From assembly GCA_030655675.1 (NCBI GenBank), contig JAUSPM010000216.1, positions 1 to 40,573 on the forward strand: a stretch of 40,573 nucleotides of DNA, read 5' to 3'. Position 1 is the stretch's first letter; the number at the start of each line of letters is the position of its first letter. The stretch is from Methanosarcinaceae archaeon. GTDB lineage: Archaea > Halobacteriota > Methanosarcinia > Methanosarcinales > Methanosarcinaceae. Below the pieces are notes generated by a model. It was not told the origin of the DNA and made no database searches. It saw only the letters and a list, made by a program, of their open reading frames with translations. The translations under genes and the position numbers were made by a program. Positions 1-37,693 of the stretch are shown piece after piece.

Positions 1-1394
1 CTTGCATCACTGCTCTGTGTAGTCTCGTACATCTGCGACAAAAGAGCACCATATGAACTGACCAGTTCAGAAATATTCTGCTCAATGTTAGACAATCCTT
101 TTTTCATCTCTTTGCTATCAGATTGTATCAATGTCAGGGTATTTTCAAACCCATCCATCCTGTTTTCAATTGAATATATCTTCTCCTTTGCAGAATCAAA
201 TCCAATCGTTACATCAGAATTAAAATCATCAGCATTTTTATTGATCTCTTTAATTGACTCGTTGGAACTTTTCACAGCATTTGAAATGTCCTTAATATCA
301 TTTACAATCTCATCAAGGAGTGACTTTGAACCTGCGATCTCATCTCTCAGATCATCTACATCTTTTGCTCTGGCTGGGATCTCAGCAAGAGTTTCAGGTT
401 CTATAGGTTTATCTGAAAACTCTCCAATCGGTTTCTCAATAAGCGCCAGAATATCTTTCTTGTTAAATTCATCAAATGGTTCTAAAAGTGCCTCTTCAGA
501 CTCCGATTCTTTTACTTCCAACACTTCCATTTCTCGCTGTGAAAACTGCATTGGTTTTTCCATTTCCGGCAGTCTCATAATTTCAGGAGCTGCATCAAAT
601 CTTGGTGCTGCAATAGTTGATTTACTGGCTTCTTCATCCCTCAACCGCACTTCCTCAGCAACTTCCACTTCCTCGCGCAATTCTTCCATCCTATCAATCA
701 AACTACCGCCTCGCATGAGGCTTTTAAACAGTGTCTTGAATGATCTTGCAATGCCATCCATCATTTTTTTAGGAACACCATCCGATGAGGAAGATGTTAT
801 AAACGGCTGTGGGTGGGAATCCGGAATAGGAGGGAAAGGTGATACACCAGAGTCATGAGTGAGAGGAAACTGTGATACACCAGAGTCAGGAGTTGGAGGG
901 AACTGCGACATACCAGAGTCAGGAGTGGGAGTAAAAGGTGATACACCAGAGTCCGGAATAGGAGGGAACGGCGATATATCTGAGTCAGGAGTAGGAGGAA
1001 AAGGTGATACATCGGAGTCATTACCCCTTTGATTCGTTTCTTCCGGTTCCTGCCCATAAATTTCAAATGCAGGAGATGTTTTTGGTTCAAATAAGGGACG
1101 AGGGGAAGGTTTTGACATGCCACCTTTGTAAACATCGATCTTTTCAGGCCCGAATACATCATCAAATAATGGAATATCCACCCCACCATCATCAGCCTCG
1201 TTTTCTTGTATACCTTTAGATAAAGCGTTTATTACCGGGATTTCAGGTGGTTTTTTCAGGTCTATTTTATGAACATGGGTTATATCTTCTATGGGATTTA
1301 TAACAAAGTCATCATTTAAAACGTCAGAAGATGGGGTGCCCTCAGACGACTCTTTATCAAAATCCTTCTTTTTATCCCAGGGAATATCATTCAT
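1..1394 (-). CDS. Hypothetical acidic/Pro-rich repeat protein with a coiled-coil C-terminal part (5' portion only; continues beyond the window edge)
   Basis: Hand translation gives an uninterrupted minus-strand frame from ATG at 1394 to position 1 (about 464 codons). It is absent from the ORF track because it has no stop in the window. It starts MNDIPWDKKKDFDKESSEG. The middle has six 11-aa repeats (SPFPPTPDSGV-like). The last ~110 visible residues are heptad-like (IENRMDGFENTLTLIQSDSKEMKKGLSNIEQNISELVSSYGALLSQMYE), loosely reminiscent of the coiled-coil segment of archaellum ArlC/D/E (FlaC/D/E) proteins; I cannot verify this. The + ORF 85..858 is its low-complexity antisense shadow. Confidence 0.6.
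   Translation of the reverse strand, partial: MNDIPWDKKKDFDKESSEGTPSSDVLNDDFVINPIEDITHVHKIDLKKPPEIPVINALSKGIQENEADDGGVDIPLFDDVFGPEKIDVYKGGMSKPSPRPLFEPKTSPAFEIYGQEPEETNQRGNDSDVSPFPPTPDSDISPFPPIPDSGVSPFTPTPDSGMSQFPPTPDSGVSQFPLTHDSGVSPFPPIPDSHPQPFITSSSSDGVPKKMMDGIARSFKTLFKSLMRGGSLIDRMEELREEVEVAEEVRLRDEEASKSTIAAPRFDAAPEIMRLPEMEKPMQFSQREMEVLEVKESESEEALLEPFDEFNKKDILALIEKPIGEFSDKPIEPETLAEIPARAKDVDDLRDEIAGSKSLLDEIVNDIKDISNAVKSSNESIKEINKNADDFNSDVTIGFDSAKEKIYSIENRMDGFENTLTLIQSDSKEMKKGLSNIEQNISELVSSYGALLSQMYETTQSSDA
810..1019 (-). repeat. Six tandem 33-nt in-frame repeats encoding S-P/Q-F-P/T-P/L-T/I-P/H-D-S-G/D-V/I/M
   Basis: Direct reading on the plus strand shows the unit gatacaccagagtcaggagtNggagggaaNNg recurring with period 33. 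The minus-strand translation is SPFPPTPDSDI / SPFPPIPDSGV / SPFTPTPDSGM / SQFPPTPDSGV / SQFPLTHDSGV / SPFPPIPDSHP. Confidence 0.85.
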
Positions 1395-14068: not shown

Positions 14069-14128
14069 CGAGAAAATCCTCGCTGTGCTCGGATTAACTC
14101 GCACTATATATCTATAAAATATATACTA
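14069..14128 (+). repeat. Hairpin-plus-TATA repeat, copy 1 (33-nt imperfect hairpin 14069-14101 and conserved AT-rich tail)
   Basis: Sequence is cgagaaaatcc-tcgctgtgctc-ggattaactcg followed by cactatatatctataaaatatatacta. Three further copies lie at 35881-35939(-), 35941-36000(-) and 37597-37658(+). Confidence 0.8.
14111..14120 (+). promoter_or_regulatory. Putative TATA box for ahbD (would give a leaderless or near-leaderless mRNA)
   Basis: tctataaaat is centred about 26 nt upstream of the ahbD ATG (14141). No Shine-Dalgarno lies between them. Confidence 0.4.
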
Positions 14129-14140
14129 AAACAAATTCAA

Positions 14141-15202
14141 ATGATTACTATGGCAAAACCACCAAGACTTATCGCATGGGAATTGACAGCAGGTTGCAAC
14201 CTCTCTTGTGTACACTGCAGAGGCGCATCAACCTTTCAGATTCCAAAGGGAGAGCTCACAACAGATGAGGCAAAGCATTTCATAGATGAAATTGTGGAGA
14301 TGGGAAATCCAATACTTATCATGAGTGGAGGAGAACCTCTTGTCCGAAAAGATGTATTCGAGATTGCACAGTACGGAACTGACAAAGGGCTTCGTGTCGT
14401 CATGGCAACTAACGGCACTCTTGTCACACCCGAGATCGCAAAGAAGATGAAAGAGGTCGGGATCCAGAGGGTCAGTGTCAGTATTGACGGCTCAAACGCC
14501 AAATCTCATGATGATTTCCGTGGCGAACCTGGTGCATTTGATGGGGCGCTAAGGGGAATTGATTATATCAAGAAAGCGGGCATCGGTTTCCAGATAAACA
14601 CCACTATTACAAAGCGCAATATTGACGAGATACCAAAGATCCTTGAATTTGCAACCGAACTGGGGGCAGAAGCACTCCATATTTTCCTTCTGGTACCAAC
14701 CGGCAGGGGCAAAGAGATCGAAGCGGATGAGATAGCACCTGTCGAATACGAGCGCGTATTGAATTGGTTCTATGAACAGCAAAAAACAGCAAAGATTCAG
14801 TTGAAAGCCACATGTGCGCCGCATTATTTCAGGATAATGCGCCAGCGTGCAAAGAAGGAAGGTATCGAAATATCCGTTAAGACACATGGATATGAAGCCA
14901 TGACCAAAGGATGTCTTGGAGGCACAGGATTTTGTTTTGTTTCCAGCATTGGTGAAGTGTACCCATGCGGATACCTGCCGGCACTTGCAGGCAGTATAAA
15001 AGAGCAGAGTTTCAAAGATATATGGGACAATGCAAAGGTGTTCAATGATATCCGTGACACAAGCAAACTCAAAGGTAAATGCGGGGAATGTGGATACAAG
15101 GAAGTGTGCAGCGGCTGCCGTGCACGCGCGTATGCAGCGACCGGAGATTACATGGCAGAAGAACCATATTGCATATATACACCACCAAAGGTAAAGGAAT
15201 AA
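14141..15202 (+). CDS. ahbD: Radical SAM/SPASM haem synthase of the siroheme-dependent (alternative) pathway, AhbD-like (NirJ family)
   Basis: 353 aa. It has ELTAGCNLSCVHCRG (CX3CX2C), SGGEPL, and a C-terminal auxiliary-cluster region CGECGYKEVCSGCRARAY. AhbD is preferred over AhbC because it directly precedes the ahbA/ahbB pair, as I recall for Methanosarcina barkeri. Confidence 0.65.
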   Translation: MITMAKPPRLIAWELTAGCNLSCVHCRGASTFQIPKGELTTDEAKHFIDEIVEMGNPILIMSGGEPLVRKDVFEIAQYGTDKGLRVVMATNGTLVTPEIAKKMKEVGIQRVSVSIDGSNAKSHDDFRGEPGAFDGALRGIDYIKKAGIGFQINTTITKRNIDEIPKILEFATELGAEALHIFLLVPTGRGKEIEADEIAPVEYERVLNWFYEQQKTAKIQLKATCAPHYFRIMRQRAKKEGIEISVKTHGYEAMTKGCLGGTGFCFVSSIGEVYPCGYLPALAGSIKEQSFKDIWDNAKVFNDIRDTSKLKGKCGECGYKEVCSGCRARAYAATGDYMAEEPYCIYTPPKVKE

Positions 15203-22359: not shown

Positions 22360-22405
22360 AAGAGGATATTGCCCTCATTGTGTAAATAAATATTAGACGG
22401 GATGA

Positions 22406-22462
22406 ACAGGATTTACAGGATGTTGTTTGCCATTTTTATCCTGTGCATCCTGTAAATCCTGT
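22406..22462. repeat. Perfect 17-bp inverted repeat (23-nt spacer) built from 9-nt-phased ACAGGA/TCCTGT hexamers
   Basis: acaggatttacaggatg (22406-22422) is the exact reverse complement of catcctgtaaatcctgt (22446-22462). ACAGGA occurs at 22406 and 22415. TCCTGT occurs at 22439, 22448 and 22457. Confidence 0.85.
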
Positions 22463-22576
22463 CCATTGATTCAAACAATGCGATCCCATGTTTGATGATA
22501 TGGCCTGAATGGTGAAGTTACTCACACAATGTTCGAGATAATCGATTTAAAATATACTAAAAAGATGTGAACGGAT

Positions 22577-23480: not shown

Positions 23481-24266
23481 ATGCGACATATCAATGTCAC
23501 TATTACAAATACGGTTGATGAATCCCCATCAACAAGGACGTTCTTTTTTGACAAGTCATTTGAAAGTGCAATCCCCGGTCAGTTCGTGATGGTCTGGATA
23601 CGTGGCGTGGATGAGATCCCGATGACGCTTTCCTACACCAATGCAATTACCGTGCAGAAGGTCGGTGATGCGACATCCGCATTGTTCAAACTGGATGTTG
23701 GAGATTCACTCGGCATTCGCGGACCTTTCGGCAATGGTTTCACATTGCCACAAAAGGATGAGAAGATCCTGCTCATTGCCGGCGGTGTTGGTGCAGCACC
23801 CCTTGCGCCCCTGGCAGAGCATGTTGCGAACTCAGGCACATGGTCGAATGTCACCACGATCTTAGGCGCGCGCAATGTCAATGAGTTGATATTTGCAAAC
23901 AGGTTCTTTATGACAGGCGAGATCCATGTCACAACCGACGATGGAACACAAGGTCGGCGCGGATTTGTCACAGACGTTTTAAGTGAGATCGATATTTCGG
24001 AGTACGACAAAATATACACCTGCGGCCCCGAGATCATGATGGCGCGCGTGTTTGAGATACTCCACAAGGCAGGCGCACACAGCAAGGCGGAATTCAGCCT
24101 GCACAGGTACTTTAAGTGTGCTATCGGTGTGTGCGGAGCGTGCTGTATGGACCCGCATGGCTTGAGGGTTTGCAAGGACGGACCTGTTTTTAATGGGGAG
24201 TTGCTTGTTGACACGGAGTTTGGGAAGTATAAGAGAGGGGCGAGTGGGATTAGGGGTAGGGTTTAG
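23481..24266 (+). CDS. pyrK: Dihydroorotate dehydrogenase electron-transfer subunit (FAD / 2Fe-2S)
   Basis: 261 aa FNR-like protein, with [11 protein letters not shown] and the C-terminal cluster ligands [10 protein letters not shown]...C. It starts 1 nt after the pyrD stop. Confidence 0.9.
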
Positions 24267-24358
24267 CATAAGTATGTAAAGTTAAAAGTGCATATACATG
24301 TTTACGATTTTATTTAATATGGAAATCTTTTTAAGATTATAATATAGAGATATGAACC

Positions 24359-25570
24359 ATGAAAATAATCAACGATATTTCAATTAAGAACTTTAAAGGA
24401 ATTGAAGAGATGGATTTTCCTTGTGGTTCCATAAATATTATAGTAGGTCCAAATAATACAGGAAAATCATCAATATTACAGTCAATTTGGTTGGCAATAA
24501 CTTCATTGAAAAATTATACAGATGTTATGGATAATGAAATTTCAGAAATTGTTGTAGATGAATTTAATTTCAAATATTTAGTTAATCAAGGAAAAGAAAA
24601 GTCGAGTATACAATTAAACTTATTTAATGAGGATAAAATTAATTTAGACATAATATATTCAAATAAAAATAAATATTATCCTGAATTATCAAATTATTTT
24701 TCACTTTTCATTTCGGATTTGAGTTATTTGAATTCTGAAATTCCATTTAGTCAAGGTTTAAATTACCGTGTTTTGAGAGAATTACAAAAAACGAATCGAT
24801 CATTGAAAAGTGATGAATCAAAAGAAAAATTCGATTTAGTTTTGAATAAAATCTCAAATCAAATGGATTCTGAAATCAAACAGTTTAAAAAAGATTTGCT
24901 TGATTCTGAAAAGTTGTTTATACAGTCTACATTGAACAATAATCTAATATCTATATATACAATAGCAGATGATTTTAATGATATTATATATCATTCTGAA
25001 GAAGAAAAACGAATTGTTGACATTCCTTTGATAATTAGTTCGCCCCATTCTGGTGACAACACACCTCTACTTTATGAAAAACTTTTTAATGCAAAAAAAA
25101 TATCACATGTACTTGAAAATTTAAAAAATAAAATTTCATATTTAGAAAATATTGGAGTAATCGATGATGAAATAAAAGTTTCACTTAAAGATATTGACCA
25201 AACATTACCCTTATCATCAATGGGTGATGGTTTCAAAGGTCTCTTAAAACTTTCTTTTATGGCTCCCTTGATCAAACATGGAATTGTTCTATTTGAAGAA
25301 CCTGAAATTTCAATGCATCCTGGATATTTTGAAATATTAGCGAAAGAAATTGTATCGAGTTCACATGATTCACAATTTTTTATAACAACTCACAGTTTAG
25401 AGTTTTTGGAGTATTTATTAGAAAAATCAGAAAAATTAGGCGTTATTGATTCAGTAAAAATATTGAGATTAACTCGACGAGCGGGTAATTTTATTGACAG
25501 AGAAGTATACTCTGGAATTGATGCCAAGAAAGACATCGAAGATATAAAAATTGATTTGAGGGGATATTAA
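24359..25570 (+). CDS. ABC/SMC-type (AAA_15/AAA_21-like) ATPase with a long helical insert, as in OLD N-domain / AriA / RloA
   Basis: 403 aa. Walker A is GPNNTGKSS (aa 30-38). A Lys/Glu/Asn-rich insert of ~245 aa follows. Then come signature-like LSSMGDGFKG (285-294), Walker B IVLFEEPE (309-316), ISMHPG and H-loop FFITTHS (340-346). The gene is very AT-rich compared with pyrK. Confidence 0.85.
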   Translation: MKIINDISIKNFKGIEEMDFPCGSINIIVGPNNTGKSSILQSIWLAITSLKNYTDVMDNEISEIVVDEFNFKYLVNQGKEKSSIQLNLFNEDKINLDIIYSNKNKYYPELSNYFSLFISDLSYLNSEIPFSQGLNYRVLRELQKTNRSLKSDESKEKFDLVLNKISNQMDSEIKQFKKDLLDSEKLFIQSTLNNNLISIYTIADDFNDIIYHSEEEKRIVDIPLIISSPHSGDNTPLLYEKLFNAKKISHVLENLKNKISYLENIGVIDDEIKVSLKDIDQTLPLSSMGDGFKGLLKLSFMAPLIKHGIVLFEEPEISMHPGYFEILAKEIVSSSHDSQFFITTHSLEFLEYLLEKSEKLGVIDSVKILRLTRRAGNFIDREVYSGIDAKKDIEDIKIDLRGY

Positions 25571-26227
25571 TTGAATATTATTATTTGTGAAGGTAAATAT
25601 GATGCAATATTCTTCGATGAACTTTCAAAAGAGAACACTCAGAAATACATAATGTATGACGTGGATTTTAAAAAACTTCAGAAATGTATGGGAAGAAGTT
25701 TAGATTATTTTAAAGTTGCATATCCATTGATTATTTATGGAGATGGTGGAAAGCCAAAAATATATAAGGCATTAGAAAAGGCTGTGGGGTTAACATTAGG
25801 AAAATCAAAGGATAATATCTATATTAGCCTAATTCTTGATGATGATGGTAATGAGTACGATGATTTAGAAGTGAAAGTAAAAGACATATTAGATTCTCTT
25901 TCTAAAAATAAAGACCGGTTTTCTCGTCCCCCAACGTTTGAGCAAAACAATCGAGGATTTATTTTAAAGTATCCCAAAAGTGAAGGGTCAACTATAGTGT
26001 CTCTTTTTACAGTTCCACTGAATCTAGAAATTCAAGTTGCTAAGAAATGTATTGAAAACAAGCCACATCCACATATAAATGTAGATGCAAACCCCCATTT
26101 AGCCATTGATTTTTTAGCAGACAACCATTATGATGGCAATAAAGAATTATTATTTAGAGAGACGTCTTTATTACTAAAAAATGAAATATGGGCAAATGCT
26201 ATTTTAAATCAAATGAATTCAGGCTAA
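25571..26227 (+). CDS. Small Toprim-like (DUF4435/RloB/OLD C-domain-like) putative nuclease partner of the ATPase
   Basis: 218 aa. The TTG start directly follows the ATPase TAA. The N-terminus is NIIICEGKYDAIFF (conserved Glu-Gly), followed by IIYGDGGK and LILDDDGNEYDD about 85 aa later (DxD), giving the E...DxD Toprim signature spacing. The fold assignment is not verified. Confidence 0.55.
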   Translation: MNIIICEGKYDAIFFDELSKENTQKYIMYDVDFKKLQKCMGRSLDYFKVAYPLIIYGDGGKPKIYKALEKAVGLTLGKSKDNIYISLILDDDGNEYDDLEVKVKDILDSLSKNKDRFSRPPTFEQNNRGFILKYPKSEGSTIVSLFTVPLNLEIQVAKKCIENKPHPHINVDANPHLAIDFLADNHYDGNKELLFRETSLLLKNEIWANAILNQMNSG

Positions 26228-26246
26228 AAACTTGAAAAAACCCAAA

Positions 26247-26496
26247 TCACTTCCTCTCATACTCAAAATAACTACACACATCCCCATCGCACCGAATCAC
26301 CCGCCCCCTGACCTTACCCTCAAATATGTCAAGCTCAATAGCGCTGGGTTCAGCAATTCCCTGCACTATGGCACCACCAAAGAAAGCAGAAGCACCTCGG
26401 ATTCCTCGATAATCGGATGGTGGAAATGCCCGAAGATCAAAACATCCACATCCATCTCTTTTGCCAGATAGCGCAGACCGTCCGCGTGGTCTGATG
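26247..26496 (-). pseudogene. Remnant of an MJ0936/YfcE-type metallophosphoesterase (C-terminal ~80 codons, N-terminus missing, frameshifted)
   Basis: One minus-strand frame reads SDHADGLRYLAKEMDVDVLIFGHFHHPIIEESEVLLL then stop. The next frame continues FFGGAIVQGIAEPSAIELDIFEGKVRGRVIRCDGDVCSYFEYERK. The D-V-L-I-F-G-H-x-H-x-P motif is the family's C-terminal metal site. The family's usual start and N-terminal metal-binding motifs are missing, and a stop bounds the fragment at 26497-26499. Confidence 0.5.
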
Positions 26497-26521: not shown

Positions 26522-26647
26522 ATGAACGACTATTCCGGTTCAATTTCAACTTGGGCAATGATTAAAAAGGATGATGTTGAAATAATATTTCAGCGAGAGG
26601 ATAGTCTAATTGAAGAAATCCCAGAGTTTAAAGATATGAAAATTTGA
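26522..26647 (+). pseudogene. 41-codon ORF, possible fragment of a larger gene (glyoxalase/VOC-like guess)
   Basis: MNDYSGSISTWAMIKKDDVEIIFQREDSLIEEIPEFKDMKI is bounded by stops on both sides. The W-A-M-I-x-x-D-D-V-E-I-x-F-Q pattern recalls the middle of VOC-fold proteins. Support is weak. Confidence 0.2.
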
Positions 26648-26662
26648 GGGGGACTTACTTAG

Positions 26663-26926
26663 ATGAACAATAATCTAAAAGAATTGCAAACGATCCCGGG
26701 AGTTGGGAAAAGCATTTCCCAGATTTTATGGAATATCGGGATTGAAAATGTTTCAGATCTGAAAGGCAAGGATCCTGAAGAATTATATTTAAAAATTTGT
26801 GCAGATCAGGGATACCAGGTTGACCGTTGCGTGCTTTATGTTTGCCGTTCTTCAGTTTATTTTGCCGATAACAAAGATCCCGATCCGGAAAAACTGAAAT
26901 GGTGGAATTGGAAGGATAAAAAATAA
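26663..26926 (+). CDS. Helix-hairpin-helix protein (Cdd1 'pathogenicity locus'-like family)
   Basis: 87 aa. LKELQTIPGVGKSISQILWNIGIENVSDLKGKDPEELY is a clear HhH. The C-terminus (CVLYVCRSSVYFA...PEKLKWWNWK) matches my memory of PF11731-type proteins. Confidence 0.6.
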   Translation: MNNNLKELQTIPGVGKSISQILWNIGIENVSDLKGKDPEELYLKICADQGYQVDRCVLYVCRSSVYFADNKDPDPEKLKWWNWKDKK

Positions 26927-35760: not shown

Positions 35761-35880
35761 GGAGACTCCGAATATTATTTAAGCACAAACGGTATATATC
35801 ATTTTCGACGTGATTTCTATATAAAATGATATTAGTTTAATTAAGTCTTACTATTAGTTTGATAAAGTCTAATTTCTTGT

Positions 35881-36000
35881 AGTATATATTTTATAAATAT
35901 ATAGTGCGAGTTAATTCGACCGAAGGGAGAATTTTCTCGTAGATTATAAATAATAAAATTATATAGTCAAGTAAATCCGAACAAATCGAGGATTTTCTCA
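35881..36000 (-). repeat. Hairpin-plus-TATA repeat, copies 3 and 4 in direct tandem (35881-35939 and 35941-36000)
   Basis: On the minus strand, copy 3 reads cgagaaaattc-tcccttcggtc-gaattaactcg + cactatatatttataaaatatatact. Copy 4 reads tgagaaaatcc-tcgatttgttc-ggatttacttg + actatataattttattatttataatct. They sit in the pan / mbf1 divergent intergenic region. Confidence 0.8.
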
Positions 36001-37596: not shown

Positions 37597-37658
37597 CGAG
37601 TAAATCCTCGCTATGCTTGGATTAACTCGGACTATATAATTCTATAAATGATATACTA
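37597..37658 (+). repeat. Hairpin-plus-TATA repeat, copy 2
   Basis: Sequence is cgagtaaatcc-tcgctatgctt-ggattaactcg + gactatataattctataaatgatatacta. It lies between the proC stop and the 3' end of the small minus-strand ORF 37694-37867. Confidence 0.8.
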
Positions 37659-37693
37659 ATAGAAAATCAAAAAAATAGGGTGTGAGTGTTAAC

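What the first reader, a model, noticed from the sequence alone, without database searches (positions are those of the whole stretch)
24267..26230. AT-rich two-gene island: ABC/SMC-like ATPase abutted to a small Toprim-like protein (candidate archaeal PARIS/OLD/AbiL-type immune module)
Seen in sequence: (i) Composition becomes very AT-rich right after the pyrK stop (24266) and reverts near 26230. This is by eye, not computed. (ii) ORF 24359-25570 has the split ABC architecture: Walker A GPNNTGKSS, a ~245-aa charged helical insert, signature-like LSSMGDGFKG, Walker B IVLFEEPE and H-loop FFITTHS. (iii) Its TAA is followed immediately by the TTG start of a 218-aa ORF. No in-frame ATG precedes that ORF's conserved-looking N-terminus, which implies coupled translation and fixed stoichiometry. 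(iv) The second protein opens with IIICEGKYDAIFF and carries LILDDDG about 85 aa later, the E...DxD signature and spacing of Toprim nucleases (DUF4435/AriB, RloB, OLD/GajA C-domains). Established: ATPase + Toprim pairs or fusions of this type are anti-phage or abortive-infection systems in bacteria (OLD, Gabija, PARIS, AbiL). Inference: this is a compact, horizontally acquired archaeal relative. At 403 + 218 aa it is smaller than the bacterial AriA/AriB as I remember them, and it may be a new subtype. The decayed genes directly downstream fit an insertion hot spot.
Basis: partly seen in the sequence, partly recalled or inferred. Interest (0 to 1): 0.85.

Follow-up and report, generated by a model that had tools for sequence, protein, structure and literature searches.

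The report
Archaeal ATPase-Toprim candidate defence pair
An AT-rich, laterally acquired two-gene module just after pyrK encodes an OLD/PARIS-like ABC ATPase and a small, translationally coupled Toprim-type nuclease; it is most likely an untested archaeal anti-virus system of an already known general kind.

Summary
ORF A (24359-25570, 403 aa) and ORF B (25571-26227, 218 aa, TTG directly after A's TAA) are intact. They lie in DNA of 26-31% GC between genes of 46-51% GC.

A is an AAA_15/AAA_21 ABC ATPase. Its nearest relatives are immune ATPases (PDC-M38A, AbiLi, TsOLD, GajA, PtuA, AriA), not transporters, and only remotely Rad50.

B belongs to a small family: 94 clusters among 1.84 billion proteins. 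Its invariant residues are E7, D11, D90, D92 and E153, the same pattern as the AriB/OLD Toprim metal site. Profile links lead to DUF3226 (PDB 2P62), Pfam OLD-like_TOPRIM, retron RT-Toprim and PADLOC PDC-M38B. A confident AlphaFold model found no Foldseek match, so the Toprim call rests on sequence profiles and motifs.

The pair is a fixed operon in about 50 loci, mostly archaeal. It sits in varied contexts, including one toxin-antitoxin/defence island. It is AT-richer than its flanks in 22 of 23 loci and absent after pyrK in more distant relatives. Between the window and a close relative its dS is about half that of the core genes.

B usually starts with TTG, CTG or ATT a few bases after A's stop.

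Verdict: a divergent, mainly archaeal member of the split ATPase + Toprim defence kind (nearest PDC-M38). Its function is inferred, not shown.

The parts
24267..24358 (+). AT-rich spacer between the pyrK stop and the start of A; probable archaeal promoter (TATA-like TTTAAGATTATAATATAG)
   Evidence: GC is 21.7%; sequence read. It is 93.5% identical to L002, against 81-86% for the flanking core genes. The promoter role is inferred.
24359..25570 (+). Gene A: ABC (AAA_15/AAA_21) ATPase of 403 aa, the proposed sensor/regulator
   Evidence: Pfam AAA_15 1.9e-20 and AAA_21 1.1e-16. PADLOC PDC-M38A 6.5e-27 and AbiLi 7.4e-27, both full length. PDB relatives are TsOLD, 9N69, PtuA, GajA and AriA. dN/dS against L002 is 0.18.
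24446..24472 (+). Walker A, GPNNTGKSS (codons 30-38, K36)
   Evidence: Position. G30, N32, G35 and K36 are invariant in 26 homologues.
24494..25198 (+). Insert of about 235 aa between Walker A and the signature motif (28.5% charged residues); the fastest-evolving part of A
   Evidence: Composition. pN/pS is 0.40-0.46 in codons 121-220, against 0.02-0.07 in the C-terminal ATPase half. A sensor role is inferred.
25211..25240 (+). ABC signature-like motif, LSSMGDGFKG (codons 285-294)
   Evidence: Position. G289 and G291 are invariant.
25283..25306 (+). Walker B with catalytic Glu, IVLFEEPE (codons 309-316, E316)
   Evidence: Position. P315 and E316 are invariant.
25376..25396 (+). H-loop, FFITTHS (codons 340-346, H345)
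   Evidence: Position. F341, T344, H345 and S346 are invariant.
25558..25573 (+). Coupling junction GAGGGGATATTAA|TTG: a purine-rich Shine-Dalgarno-like run inside A's conserved C-terminal DLRGY codons, then A's stop, then B's TTG start
   Evidence: Sequence. In about 30 loci B's first codon lies 0-5 nt after A's stop. That codon is TTG, ATG, GTG, CTG or ATT, and is preceded by RG codons (AGGGG/CGGGG/AGAGG). Translational coupling is inferred.
25571..26227 (+). Gene B: DUF3226-like Toprim protein of 218 aa, the proposed metal-dependent nuclease effector
   Evidence: The family has 94 clusters at 50% identity. Invariant residues are E7, D11, F14, D90 and E153. Profile links are to DUF3226, OLD-like_TOPRIM, 2P62, PDC-M38B and RT-Toprim. 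The AF2 model has pLDDT 93.4.
25577..25615 (+). Toprim motif I, IIICEGKYDAIFF (E7, D11)
   Evidence: Positions. It aligns with VEGxxD/E of OLD Toprim domains. AriB has E26 and D30 at the same spacing (PMC11464382).
25736..25756 (+). Glycine motif YGDGGKP after the second core strand (G60 nearly invariant)
   Evidence: Conservation. It co-aligns with the G-rich loop of OLD Toprim.
25829..25849 (+). Toprim DxD motif, LILDDDG (D90, D92)
   Evidence: Positions. It aligns with DxD of DUF3226/OLD-like partner proteins and of fused OLD proteins.
26012..26035 (+). Late acidic motif VPLNLEIQ (P149, L152, E153)
   Evidence: E153 is invariant. The motif follows strand 141-148 in the model. Its equivalence to AriB E122 and P2 Old 'GDIEAVY' was judged by eye only.
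26093..26224 (+). C-terminal three-helix domain of B (W207 nearly invariant); no match to any family
   Evidence: Helices 175-186, 191-201 and 206-217. The PDC-M38B and DUF3226 hits of the window protein cover only residues 2-151. Function is unknown; dimerisation or ATPase docking is a guess.
26247..26455 (-). Two short minus-strand ORF pieces (DVDVLIFGHFHHP...): a possible frameshifted remnant of a metallophosphoesterase gene abutting the module
   Evidence: ORFs. Only a weak Metallophos_2 hit, E 0.071. This marks the edge of the module rather than being part of it.

Best explanation
This is a two-gene, laterally mobile immune or abortive-infection module of the OLD-like kind, split into a separate ABC ATPase and a separate Toprim nuclease.

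Shown:
- A is an intact ABC ATPase under purifying selection, belonging to the OLD/Septu/PARIS/AbiL clade.
- B is an intact small protein with all five acidic residues of a two-metal Toprim site.
- The two genes form a fixed, abutting operon across Archaea.
- The module is compositionally foreign, variably located and sometimes decayed.

Inferred, by analogy with PARIS and P2 Old/Gabija:
- A oligomerises and holds B inactive.
- A's fast-evolving insert senses a viral cue, such as a viral protein or an altered nucleic-acid or nucleotide state.
- ATP binding or hydrolysis then releases or activates B.
- B's Mg2+/Mn2+-dependent Toprim site cuts a nucleic acid (tRNA or DNA; which one is not known) and stops growth of the infected cell.
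- B is translated by coupling to A from a weak start codon just after A's stop, which would keep the nuclease from exceeding its keeper.
For: The ATPase class is supported.

Toprim identity of B:
- E7, D11, D90 and E153 are invariant and D92 nearly so, matching AriB's E26, D30, D88, E90, E122 (PMC11464382).
- 27 of 62 members hit DUF3226 and 10 of 62 hit OLD-like_TOPRIM.
- The family profile hits PDB 2P62 at 1.5e-4.
- Members hit RT-Toprim_I-C at 1.1e-6, plus mad4, HEC-04 and HEC-01B.
- The partner protein in L065 passes Pfam's cut-offs for both DUF3226 (47.5 bits) and OLD-like_TOPRIM (27.4 bits) on the same stretch.
- hhalign gives E 1.1e-11 against those partner proteins and E 2.1e-4 against OLD Toprim tails, two of which were verified.
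- The model's strand-helix order places E7, G60, D90/D92 and E153 at strand ends.

Operon and accessory-gene character:
- B lies directly downstream of A in every locus with room, about 50 loci.
- The pair is AT-richer than its flanks in 22 of 23 loci.
- Neighbourhoods vary; in L108 the pair sits among DarT-NADAR, two ParE, HepT-MNT, SocA and TnpB genes, and in L001 and L002 ParE or HEPN genes lie nearby.
- The pair is absent after pyrK in relatives.
- Against L002, dS is 0.35 (A) and 0.20 (B), versus 0.73-0.81 for core genes.
- B is broken in L002/L004 and L008 while A stays intact.
Against: - There is no experiment on any member of this family.
- The closest catalogued type, PDC-M38, is itself untested, and the related HEC-01 (ATPase + Toprim) showed no defence in the assays of Payne et al..
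- Foldseek with a pLDDT 93 model found no Toprim protein, nor any other hit, at E <= 1e-3 in the PDB or BFVD.
- The window protein alone is below Pfam thresholds.
- hhalign against the single P2 Old sequence found nothing, and against OLD tails the probability was only 46%.
- Most neighbourhoods seen are ordinary housekeeping genes.
- No homologue was found on plasmids, and none was found with a B partner in viral contigs.
- The lower dS could partly reflect the extreme AT bias.
Confidence: 0.6

Rival explanations
1. It is a selfish addiction (toxin-antitoxin-like) module. B is a toxic nuclease and A its ATPase antitoxin. The pair persists by post-segregational killing or by hitch-hiking in variable regions, with no dedicated antiviral role.
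For: - The weak-start B gene tightly coupled behind A fits keeping the toxin at or below the level of its keeper.
- B is selectively broken in L002/L004 and L008.
- The pair co-locates with classical TA genes.
- PDB depositors call AriA an 'antitoxin'.
Against: The characterised relatives with this architecture (PARIS, Old, Gabija, AbiL) are all antiviral, so TA-like behaviour and defence are not exclusive. No plasmid copies were found.
Confidence: 0.17
2. It is a cellular DNA-transaction factor. One model is the archaeal OLD-family protein Cran1 (nickase/ATPase needed for cell-cycle progression). Another is a RecF-RecR-like ATPase + Toprim repair pair.
For: - Cran1 shows that archaeal OLD-family proteins can have non-defence roles (PMC12796447).
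- A has weak N-terminal similarity to RecF and Rad50.
- Several neighbourhoods are purely housekeeping.
Against: - Cran1 is a fused protein, vertically inherited and conserved in one order. This pair is split and patchy.
- It sits at different loci in different genomes and is absent from relatives at this locus.
- It is compositionally foreign and sometimes pseudogenised.
- Some MAGs carry more than one copy (L018/L039, L041/L051).
Confidence: 0.08
3. B is not a nuclease. It would be a Toprim-like or merely Rossmann-like adaptor that binds metal, nucleotide or nucleic acid, and the pair works by ATP-driven binding or remodelling rather than cleavage.
For: - There is no structural match to any Toprim nuclease.
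- The family's only solved relative (2P62, PH0156) has no assigned function.
- Toprim domains such as that of RecR are non-catalytic (established knowledge).
Against: All five acidic positions of the two-metal site are invariant or nearly so across 62 diverse members. This is the hallmark of catalytic Toprims (PMC11464382, PMC12065111).
Confidence: 0.1

Closest known systems
PADLOC candidate system PDC-M38 (M38A + M38B), from guilt-by-embedding (Payne et al., bioRxiv 10.1101/2024.01.29.577857)
   Same: It has the same two-gene order, an ABC ATPase followed by a small partner. A matches M38A over its full length (6.5e-27; all 26 family members match, best 9.4e-34). B matches M38B (9.4e-6; 25 of 62 family members match, best 1.7e-9).
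   Different: The scores are modest for a family member. Only the N-terminal Toprim half of B aligns (residues 2-111 to profile positions 3-116 of 240). PDC-M38 was defined from RefSeq cassettes embedded in RM/BREX/DISARM systems and is untested. The family here is mainly archaeal and was not seen embedded in such systems.
PARIS (AriA + AriB; class 4 OLD)
   Same: It is also a split ABC ATPase (AAA_15/21) plus a separate Toprim effector. The acidic pattern matches: E-x3-D ... D-x-D/E ... E (AriB E26, D30, D88, E90, E122; B E7, D11, D90, D92, E153). AriA is detectable by sequence (5.8e-8 with the family profile).
   Different: B gives no DUF4435 hit. The proteins are smaller: 403 + 218 aa, against about 464 aa and 35 kDa. 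B has extra inserts and a different C-terminal domain. Class 4 was reported as restricted to Bacteria. The trigger (anti-restriction proteins) and the target (tRNA-Lys) are unknown here.
AbiL (AbiLi + AbiLii) of Lactococcus
   Same: The ATPase matches the AbiLi model as well as it matches PDC-M38A (7.4e-27, residues 4-391). AbiL is also a two-gene abortive-infection pair.
   Different: No AbiLii match was found for B or for its family among the listed hits.
P2 Old and class 1 OLD nucleases; Gabija GajA (class 2)
   Same: They have the same ATPase clade (TsOLD 2.6e-12, GajA about 2e-8). Their Toprim motifs line up with B: VEGxxE, a G-rich loop and DxD.
   Different: In those proteins the ATPase and Toprim are fused in one chain. 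Here there are two genes, although TAA and TTG are in the same frame in the window. No UvrD-like GajB gene is adjacent.
Pfam DUF3226 / PH0156 of Pyrococcus horikoshii (PDB 2P62)
   Same: It is the best Pfam and PDB relative of the B family (27 of 62 members; profile E 1.5e-4). True DUF3226 proteins also sit directly after A-like ATPases (L056, L065, L079).
   Different: The window protein itself is below the Pfam cut-off (15 bits against 27). DUF3226 has no described function. Foldseek did not retrieve 2P62.
MADS Mad3-Mad4, HEC-01 and HEC-04, and retron type I-C RT-Toprim
   Same: All are AAA_15/21 ATPases paired or fused with Toprim-superfamily effectors. B-family members hit the mad4, HEC-01B, HEC-04 and RT-Toprim models, and A hits mad3 and HEC-01A.
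   Different: Only a minority of B-family members hit these, and weakly. Those systems carry further components (methyltransferase, reverse transcriptase) that are absent here.
Cran1 (class 5 OLD, Sulfolobales)
   Same: It is an archaeal OLD-family ATPase plus Toprim nickase.
   Different: Cran1 is fused, essential, vertically inherited and paired with a membrane protein. The pair here is split, patchy, foreign in composition and dispensable, since it is decayed in relatives.

Membership tests
ABC ATPases of the AAA_15/AAA_21 (OLD/Septu/PARIS/AbiL) group | Walker A, ABC signature, Walker B with catalytic Glu, and H-loop, with Pfam AAA_15/AAA_21 above threshold | tested here: met
   AAA_15 scores 74.3 bits (cut-off 32.1) and AAA_21 62.2 bits (cut-off 27). 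The motifs are at 30-38, 285-294, 309-316 and 340-346 and are invariant in 26 homologues.
Toprim superfamily (OLD-like branch) | Conserved Glu at the end of strand 1 and DxD after strand 3, with the extra acidic residues of the two-metal site | tested here: met
   E7, D11, D90 and E153 are invariant and D92 nearly so across 62 sequences. They sit at strand ends in the AF2 model and co-align with OLD Toprim motifs.
Toprim superfamily (OLD-like branch) | Significant profile match to a curated Toprim model | tested here: inconclusive
   The window protein gives no Toprim hit. Ten of 62 family members hit PF20469, best E 0.0038. Partner protein L065 passes the cut-offs of both PF20469 and DUF3226. 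hhalign against OLD tails gives E 2.1e-4 but probability 46%.
Toprim superfamily (OLD-like branch) | Toprim fold recovered by structure comparison | tested here: not met
   Foldseek of the pLDDT 93.4 model against the PDB and BFVD found no match at E <= 1e-3 and no Toprim protein in the top 50. A direct superposition on 6NK8, 8UX9 or 2P62 could not be run.
PADLOC PDC-M38 | Adjacent genes that match the M38A and M38B models | tested here: inconclusive
   A matches at 6.5e-27 over its full length. B matches at 9.4e-6 but covers only half of the model. PADLOC's own coverage and E-value rules could not be applied.
PARIS (class 4 OLD) | AriB partner with a DUF4435 domain | tested here: not met
   There is no DUF4435 hit for B and none among the 25 most frequent families for the 62 members. 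No AriB model appears among the PADLOC hits.
PARIS (class 4 OLD) | AriA-AriB complex, release of AriB on trigger binding, and tRNA cleavage | not testable with these tools
   This needs biochemistry.
AbiL | AbiLi ATPase plus an AbiLii partner | tested here: not met
   AbiLi matches at 7.4e-27, but no AbiLii hit appears for B or its family.
Gabija | Fused GajA (ATPase-Toprim) with an adjacent UvrD-like GajB | tested here: not met
   A and B are separate genes. The next ORFs downstream are a gene remnant and a Cdd1-like gene, with no helicase.
Class 1 OLD (P2 Old type) | A single polypeptide with an N-terminal ATPase and a C-terminal Toprim | tested here: not met
   A stop codon separates A and B in the window and in all about 30 junctions examined, and the relative reading frame varies.
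Pfam DUF3226 | Score above the gathering threshold (27 bits) | tested here: not met
   The window protein scores 15 bits, E 0.022. The relationship shows only at family level.
Cran1 / class 5 OLD | Fused protein, vertical inheritance within an order, and a conserved operon with a membrane protein | tested here: not met
   The genes are split, their loci vary and their composition is foreign.
Anti-virus defence system (function) | Protection against virus infection when expressed | not testable with these tools
   Only homology and context evidence is available. No member of this family has been assayed, to judge from the literature searches.

The most novel reading that the evidence does not exclude
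The pair would represent a distinct, predominantly archaeal class of split OLD-like immune systems. It would combine an ABC ATPase, a DUF3226-type Toprim effector with its own C-terminal helical domain, and obligatory non-AUG (UUG/CUG/AUU) termination-reinitiation coupling. That would make it the first PARIS-like (class 4-like) system of Archaea, with a trigger and a nucleic-acid target different from those of the bacterial systems. It would spread between Methanosarcinales chromosomes by homology-assisted integration of circularised chromosome fragments, as the leuD-like|pyrK junction in L002 and L003 suggests.
Probability: 0.25. Interest if true: 0.6.

Novelty: new member of a known kind. 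Interest (0 to 1): 0.4.

Why it matters
Archaeal antiviral immunity beyond CRISPR and restriction-modification is poorly charted. [quoted passage not shown] The only characterised archaeal OLD-family protein, Cran1, turned out not to be a defence protein. The split (PARIS-type) class was reported as restricted to Bacteria (PMC12796447).

This pair shows that a compact split ATPase + Toprim module is widespread in Archaea: Methanosarcinales including ANME and Methanoperedens, Methanomicrobiales, Thermoplasmata, Thermoproteota, Nitrososphaerota and Asgard archaea. It behaves like an accessory, laterally moving gene pair.

It gives a small, well-defined candidate (621 aa in total, with clear point mutants) for testing OLD-type abortive infection in methanogens. 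It also assigns a probable function to DUF3226 and to PDB 2P62.

It does not change the known picture of how such systems are built.

Tried and rejected
- **First structure model.** AF2 with 6 sequences gave pLDDT 55 and was discarded.
- **Structure search.** Foldseek of the good model against the PDB and BFVD gave no significant hit, not even 2P62. The Toprim fold could therefore not be confirmed structurally.
- **P2 Old comparison.** hhalign of the B family against the single P2 Old sequence found nothing. The homologue search with the P2 Old Toprim region returned only 5 proteins, too few for a profile, and used the last protein search.
- **Plasmids and viruses.** tblastn of A and B against 72,556 plasmids found no match. 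IMG/VR holds only distant AAA_15/21 ATPases, none with a B-type partner.
- **Paralogue in the window.** P0025 lies on a contig of the same length as the window, but that contig is a different sequence.
- **att-like repeats.** No direct repeats flank the module in the window.
- **pyrK 3' end as part of the transferred block.** The pyrK 3' end attached to A-B in L002 is not closer to the window's pyrK than L002's intact copy is (82.6% for both). The idea that the pyrK 3' end travels with the module from a window-like donor is therefore not supported. The jump in identity starts at the pyrK stop.
- **Circular contigs.** Contigs of about 2.2 kb that hold only A-B have no terminal overlaps, so circularity is not shown.
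- **RNA genes.** There are no tRNA genes or Rfam families in the window.
- **Literature.** No paper mentions PDC-M38 or DUF3226.
- **pyrK look-up.** The exact window pyrK protein is not on record in the contig index.
Full report
**1. The observation**

The two ORFs exist as described. A is 24359-25570 (403 aa, ATG). B is 25571-26227 (218 aa), and its TTG is the codon immediately after A's TAA, in the same frame.

GC falls from about 50% in pyrD-pyrK to 21.7% in the 92-nt spacer, 26.3% in A (GC3 18%) and 30.6% in B (GC3 23%). With this composition, stop-free runs of 403 and 218 codons have probabilities of 1.7e-17 and 8e-10.

The low-GC tract does not end at 26230. After a GC-richer 290 nt it continues to about 28090. 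The window has no tRNA genes and no Rfam matches.

**2. Protein A**

Pfam gives AAA_15 (1.9e-20) and AAA_21 (1.1e-16). In PADLOC the best models, both matched over the full length, are PDC-M38A (6.5e-27) and AbiLi (7.4e-27). Next come the generic AriA models, NsnB, PtuA, HEC-01A, mad3, GajA and Old. All 26 diverse homologues behave the same way.

Against PDB sequences the family profile finds TsOLD, 9N69, PtuA, GajA, the retron Ec83 ATPase and AriA. Rad50 N-lobes appear as a more general relative. No transporters, SMC or RecF appear. NCBIfam gives only sub-threshold hits: MAD3, RecF, Eco8 and PtuA.

The Walker A Lys, the signature Gly residues, E316 and H345 are invariant. So is a C-terminal D-L-R-G motif.

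Against the close relative L002, A has dN/dS 0.18. The C-terminal ATPase half is very constrained (0.02-0.07) and the insert (codons 121-220) is relaxed (0.40-0.46). A is therefore a functional ABC ATPase of the immune OLD/Septu/PARIS/AbiL clade.

**3. Protein B**

*Family and conserved residues.* The word-based search found only six relatives. An exhaustive profile search of 1.84 billion representatives found 94 clusters, nearly all stand-alone proteins of 200-240 aa.

In a 62-sequence alignment the invariant residues are E7, D11, F14, D90 and E153. G8, G60, D92, P149, L152 and W207 are nearly invariant. The pattern E-x3-D ... G ... D-x-D ... E is that of two-metal Toprim nucleases. AriB's active site is E26, D30, D88, E90 and E122 (PMC11464382). 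Toprim is defined by the strand-1 Glu and the DxD after strand 3 (PMC12065111).

*Profile evidence.*
- The window protein alone reaches only DUF3226 at E 0.022 and PDC-M38B at 9.4e-6.
- 27 of 62 members hit DUF3226 (best 2.3e-6) and 10 of 62 hit OLD-like_TOPRIM (best 0.0038).
- The family profile hits PDB 2P62 (PH0156) at 1.5e-4.
- In PADLOC, members hit PDC-M38B (25 members, best 1.7e-9), RT-Toprim_I-C (1.1e-6), mad4, HEC-04 and HEC-01B.
- More distant partner proteins sit directly after A-like ATPases and bridge the families. L065 passes the Pfam cut-offs of both DUF3226 (47.5 bits) and OLD-like_TOPRIM (27.4 bits) on the same N-terminal stretch. L056 and L079 are clear DUF3226 proteins. L060 is borderline for OLD-like_TOPRIM.
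- hhalign of the B family against these partners gives 97.4% probability, E 1.1e-11. This is not independent, because the partners had been found with the B profile.
- hhalign against 14 C-terminal tails of fused OLD proteins, chosen only by motif I, gives E 2.1e-4 at 46% probability, with motif I, the glycine loop and DxD all co-aligned. Two of the tails were verified as PF20469 at 52-59 bits.

*Structure.* An AF2 model built on the 62-sequence alignment is confident (pLDDT 93.4, pTM 0.90). It shows an alternating strand-helix domain in which the conserved acidic residues sit at strand ends, followed by a three-helix C-terminal domain.

Foldseek, however, found no match at E <= 1e-3 in the PDB or BFVD. 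No Toprim protein, nor 2P62, was in the top 50. The Toprim assignment therefore rests on motifs and sequence profiles, not on structure comparison. I rate it likely, not proven.

**4. The pair as a unit**

Among genome loci found with the A profile, B lies immediately downstream in every locus with room. That is about 30 archaeal loci at high significance and about 50 in all, including a few bacterial ones.

The hosts span:
- Methanosarcinales, including ANME-2, Methanoperedenaceae, Ethanoperedens and Argoarchaeum
- Methanomicrobiales
- Thermoplasmata
- Desulfurococcales and other Thermoproteota
- Nitrososphaerota
- Promethearchaeota and Heimdallarchaeota
- some DPANN archaea

B's first codon lies 0-5 nt after A's stop. 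It is usually TTG, sometimes ATG or GTG. In several lineages it is CTG (L001, L007, L012) or ATT/ATA (L024, L027), with no canonical start available. It is preceded by the purine-rich RG codons of A's conserved C-terminus.

**5. Accessory and mobile character**

- The pair is AT-richer than its flanks in 22 of 23 loci.
- It sits in unrelated neighbourhoods: after metG in Ca. Ethanoperedens, after a YtfJ-like gene near the cofH/cofC genes, and next to CDC48 in Methanolobus bombayensis.
- In one Methanosarcinaceae genome it lies inside a block of DarT-NADAR, two ParE, HepT-MNT, SocA and TnpB genes. In a Lokiarchaeon it lies among unknown genes and an N6 methyltransferase gene.
- Loci from more distant relatives that keep hemL-hemC-pyrD-pyrK carry none of A, B, Cdd1, the P-type ATPase or the leuD-like gene downstream of pyrK.
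- Only the close relative L002 shares the pair. There, nucleotide identity jumps from 81-86% in core genes to 93.5% in the spacer and 90% in A and B. dS is 0.35 for A and 0.20 for B, against 0.73-0.81 for the core genes. This is consistent with later lateral exchange, although the extreme AT bias may contribute.
- In L002 and L004, B carries a 1-nt deletion right after the DDDG codons. In L008 it has an in-frame stop. A is intact in all three.
- No copies were found on plasmids. No A+B pair was found in viral contigs.

**6. Mechanism**

Shown: an intact, constrained ABC ATPase; an intact small protein with a complete Toprim-type acidic site; and a fixed, coupled operon with the behaviour of an accessory gene pair.

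Inferred, by analogy with PARIS (AriA sequesters AriB, and trigger plus ATP releases a tRNA-cutting Toprim; PMC11464382) and with Old and Gabija: A oligomers hold B inactive. The variable insert senses infection. ATP binding or hydrolysis frees or activates B. B then cleaves tRNA or DNA and aborts the infection. The substrate and the trigger are unknown.

Rival readings are a purely selfish toxin-antitoxin-like module, a Cran1-like or RecFR-like cellular role (PMC12796447), and a non-catalytic B.

**7. Comparison with what is known**

The architecture is that of the split OLD-like systems: PARIS, AbiL, Mad3-Mad4, HEC-01 and PDC-M38.

Membership tests fail for PARIS (no DUF4435), AbiL (no AbiLii match), Gabija (not fused, no helicase), class 1 OLD (not fused) and Cran1. 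They are borderline for PDC-M38, where both models hit but B only over its N-terminal half. PDC-M38 is an untested candidate found by guilt-by-embedding. The related HEC-01 showed no defence in that study's assays.

One paper reports split class 4 systems as restricted to Bacteria and says that no archaeal OLD defence protein has been characterised.

I therefore file the pair as a divergent, mainly archaeal member of a known kind. It is not a new kind.

**8. Verdict**

The corrections are:
- The Toprim domain is of the DUF3226 type, not DUF4435 or RloB.
- There is no structural confirmation.
- PADLOC already catalogues distant relatives.
- The evidence for decayed neighbouring genes is weak.

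Interest is moderate. The pair is a clean, testable candidate for archaeal OLD-type immunity and gives DUF3226 and PDB 2P62 a probable function, but it is unsurprising in kind.

Noticed in passing
L002 6204-6520 and 9589-9905; L002 8147-8361 and 9349-9564; L003 1-125: In the close relative, a 317-nt copy of the pyrK 3' end (86-87% identical to the intact gene's end) sits directly upstream of A-B. It is fused head-to-tail to the first ~111 codons of the leuD-like (Aconitase_C) gene that lies 5 kb downstream in the window. The same junction occurs in a JGI contig. This is what Campbell-type integration of a circularised pyrK...leuD fragment, or a tandem segmental duplication, would leave.
   Followed up: partly
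L002 7079-8054: Right after the intact pyrK, L002 carries a zinc-ribbon ORF and an 86-aa + 109-aa ParE-type toxin-antitoxin pair instead of A-B. The site downstream of pyrK therefore holds different accessory cargo in related genomes.
   Followed up: partly
L172 2060-2187 (89.5% identical to window 24146-26329): In another relative the sequence about 100 nt after B joins directly to an internal point of the leuD-like gene (window 31045) at a GACC microhomology. This deletes the Cdd1, ArsR and P-type ATPase region.
   Followed up: partly
L172, L173, L174 and many hits: Dozens of metagenome contigs carrying A homologues are only 1.6-2.8 kb long. The three inspected hold just A+B with 100-300 nt of flank and have no terminal overlap. 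Assemblies seem to break at the module's edges, as expected if the module sits in several contexts within a community.
   Followed up: partly
L001 11211, L007 7233, L012 1080, L024 7199, L027 4195: B orthologues whose conserved N-terminus begins with CTG, or with ATT/ATA, and has no ATG, GTG or TTG in frame after the preceding stop. These are apparent non-canonical starts 1-5 nt after the ATPase stop codon.
   Followed up: partly
L002 11490, L004 1733, L008 7697-7699: B is disrupted while A stays intact: a 1-nt deletion right after the DDDG codons in L002 and L004, and an in-frame stop in L008. L002 and L004 may derive from the same sample.
   Followed up: partly
window 14069-14141, 35871-35939 (minus strand), 37597-37671; L002 4280-4410: A repeat of about 70 nt, CGAGAAAATCCTCGCTACGCTCGGATTAACTCGGACTATATAAT..TATAAATTATATAC. 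It has a short stem and a TATA-rich tail and lies upstream of a gene each time. It looks like a dispersed promoter-like cassette.
   Followed up: partly
window 817-1019: Tandem direct repeats of about 66 nt (82% identical), overlapping the ORFs 85-858 (+) and 797-1192 (-).
   Followed up: no
window 26247-26455 (minus strand) and 26522-26647: Short ORF pieces next to the module. DVDVLIFGHFHHP... resembles the GHxH motif region of metallophosphoesterases (Metallophos_2, E 0.07). A 41-aa ORF has no match. They may be gene remnants.
   Followed up: partly
window 26663-26926: An 87-aa Cdd1/HHH protein gene (Pfam Cdd1, 6e-29). Its dS against L002 (0.36) is also about half that of the core genes, and in L002 it lies at a different position relative to A-B.
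   Followed up: partly
L005 8075-9151, L006 6746-7822: A release-factor-like gene (baeRF_family10 / eRF1_2 / acVLRF1) lies directly downstream of B in one lineage. Whether it is linked to the pair was not examined.
   Followed up: no
L001 / L009 (WNEG01000087.1, Ca. Ethanoperedens thermophilum): This public contig has exactly the window's length (40573 nt) but is a different sequence. Its A homologue is only 51% identical and lies in another gene context. This appears to be a coincidence.
   Followed up: yes
window 22402-22466: A 21-nt inverted repeat, 95% complementary (ATGAACAGGATTTACAGGATG / CATCCTGTAAATCCTGTCCAT), in the hemC-pyrD spacer. Part of it is 100% conserved in L002.
   Followed up: no
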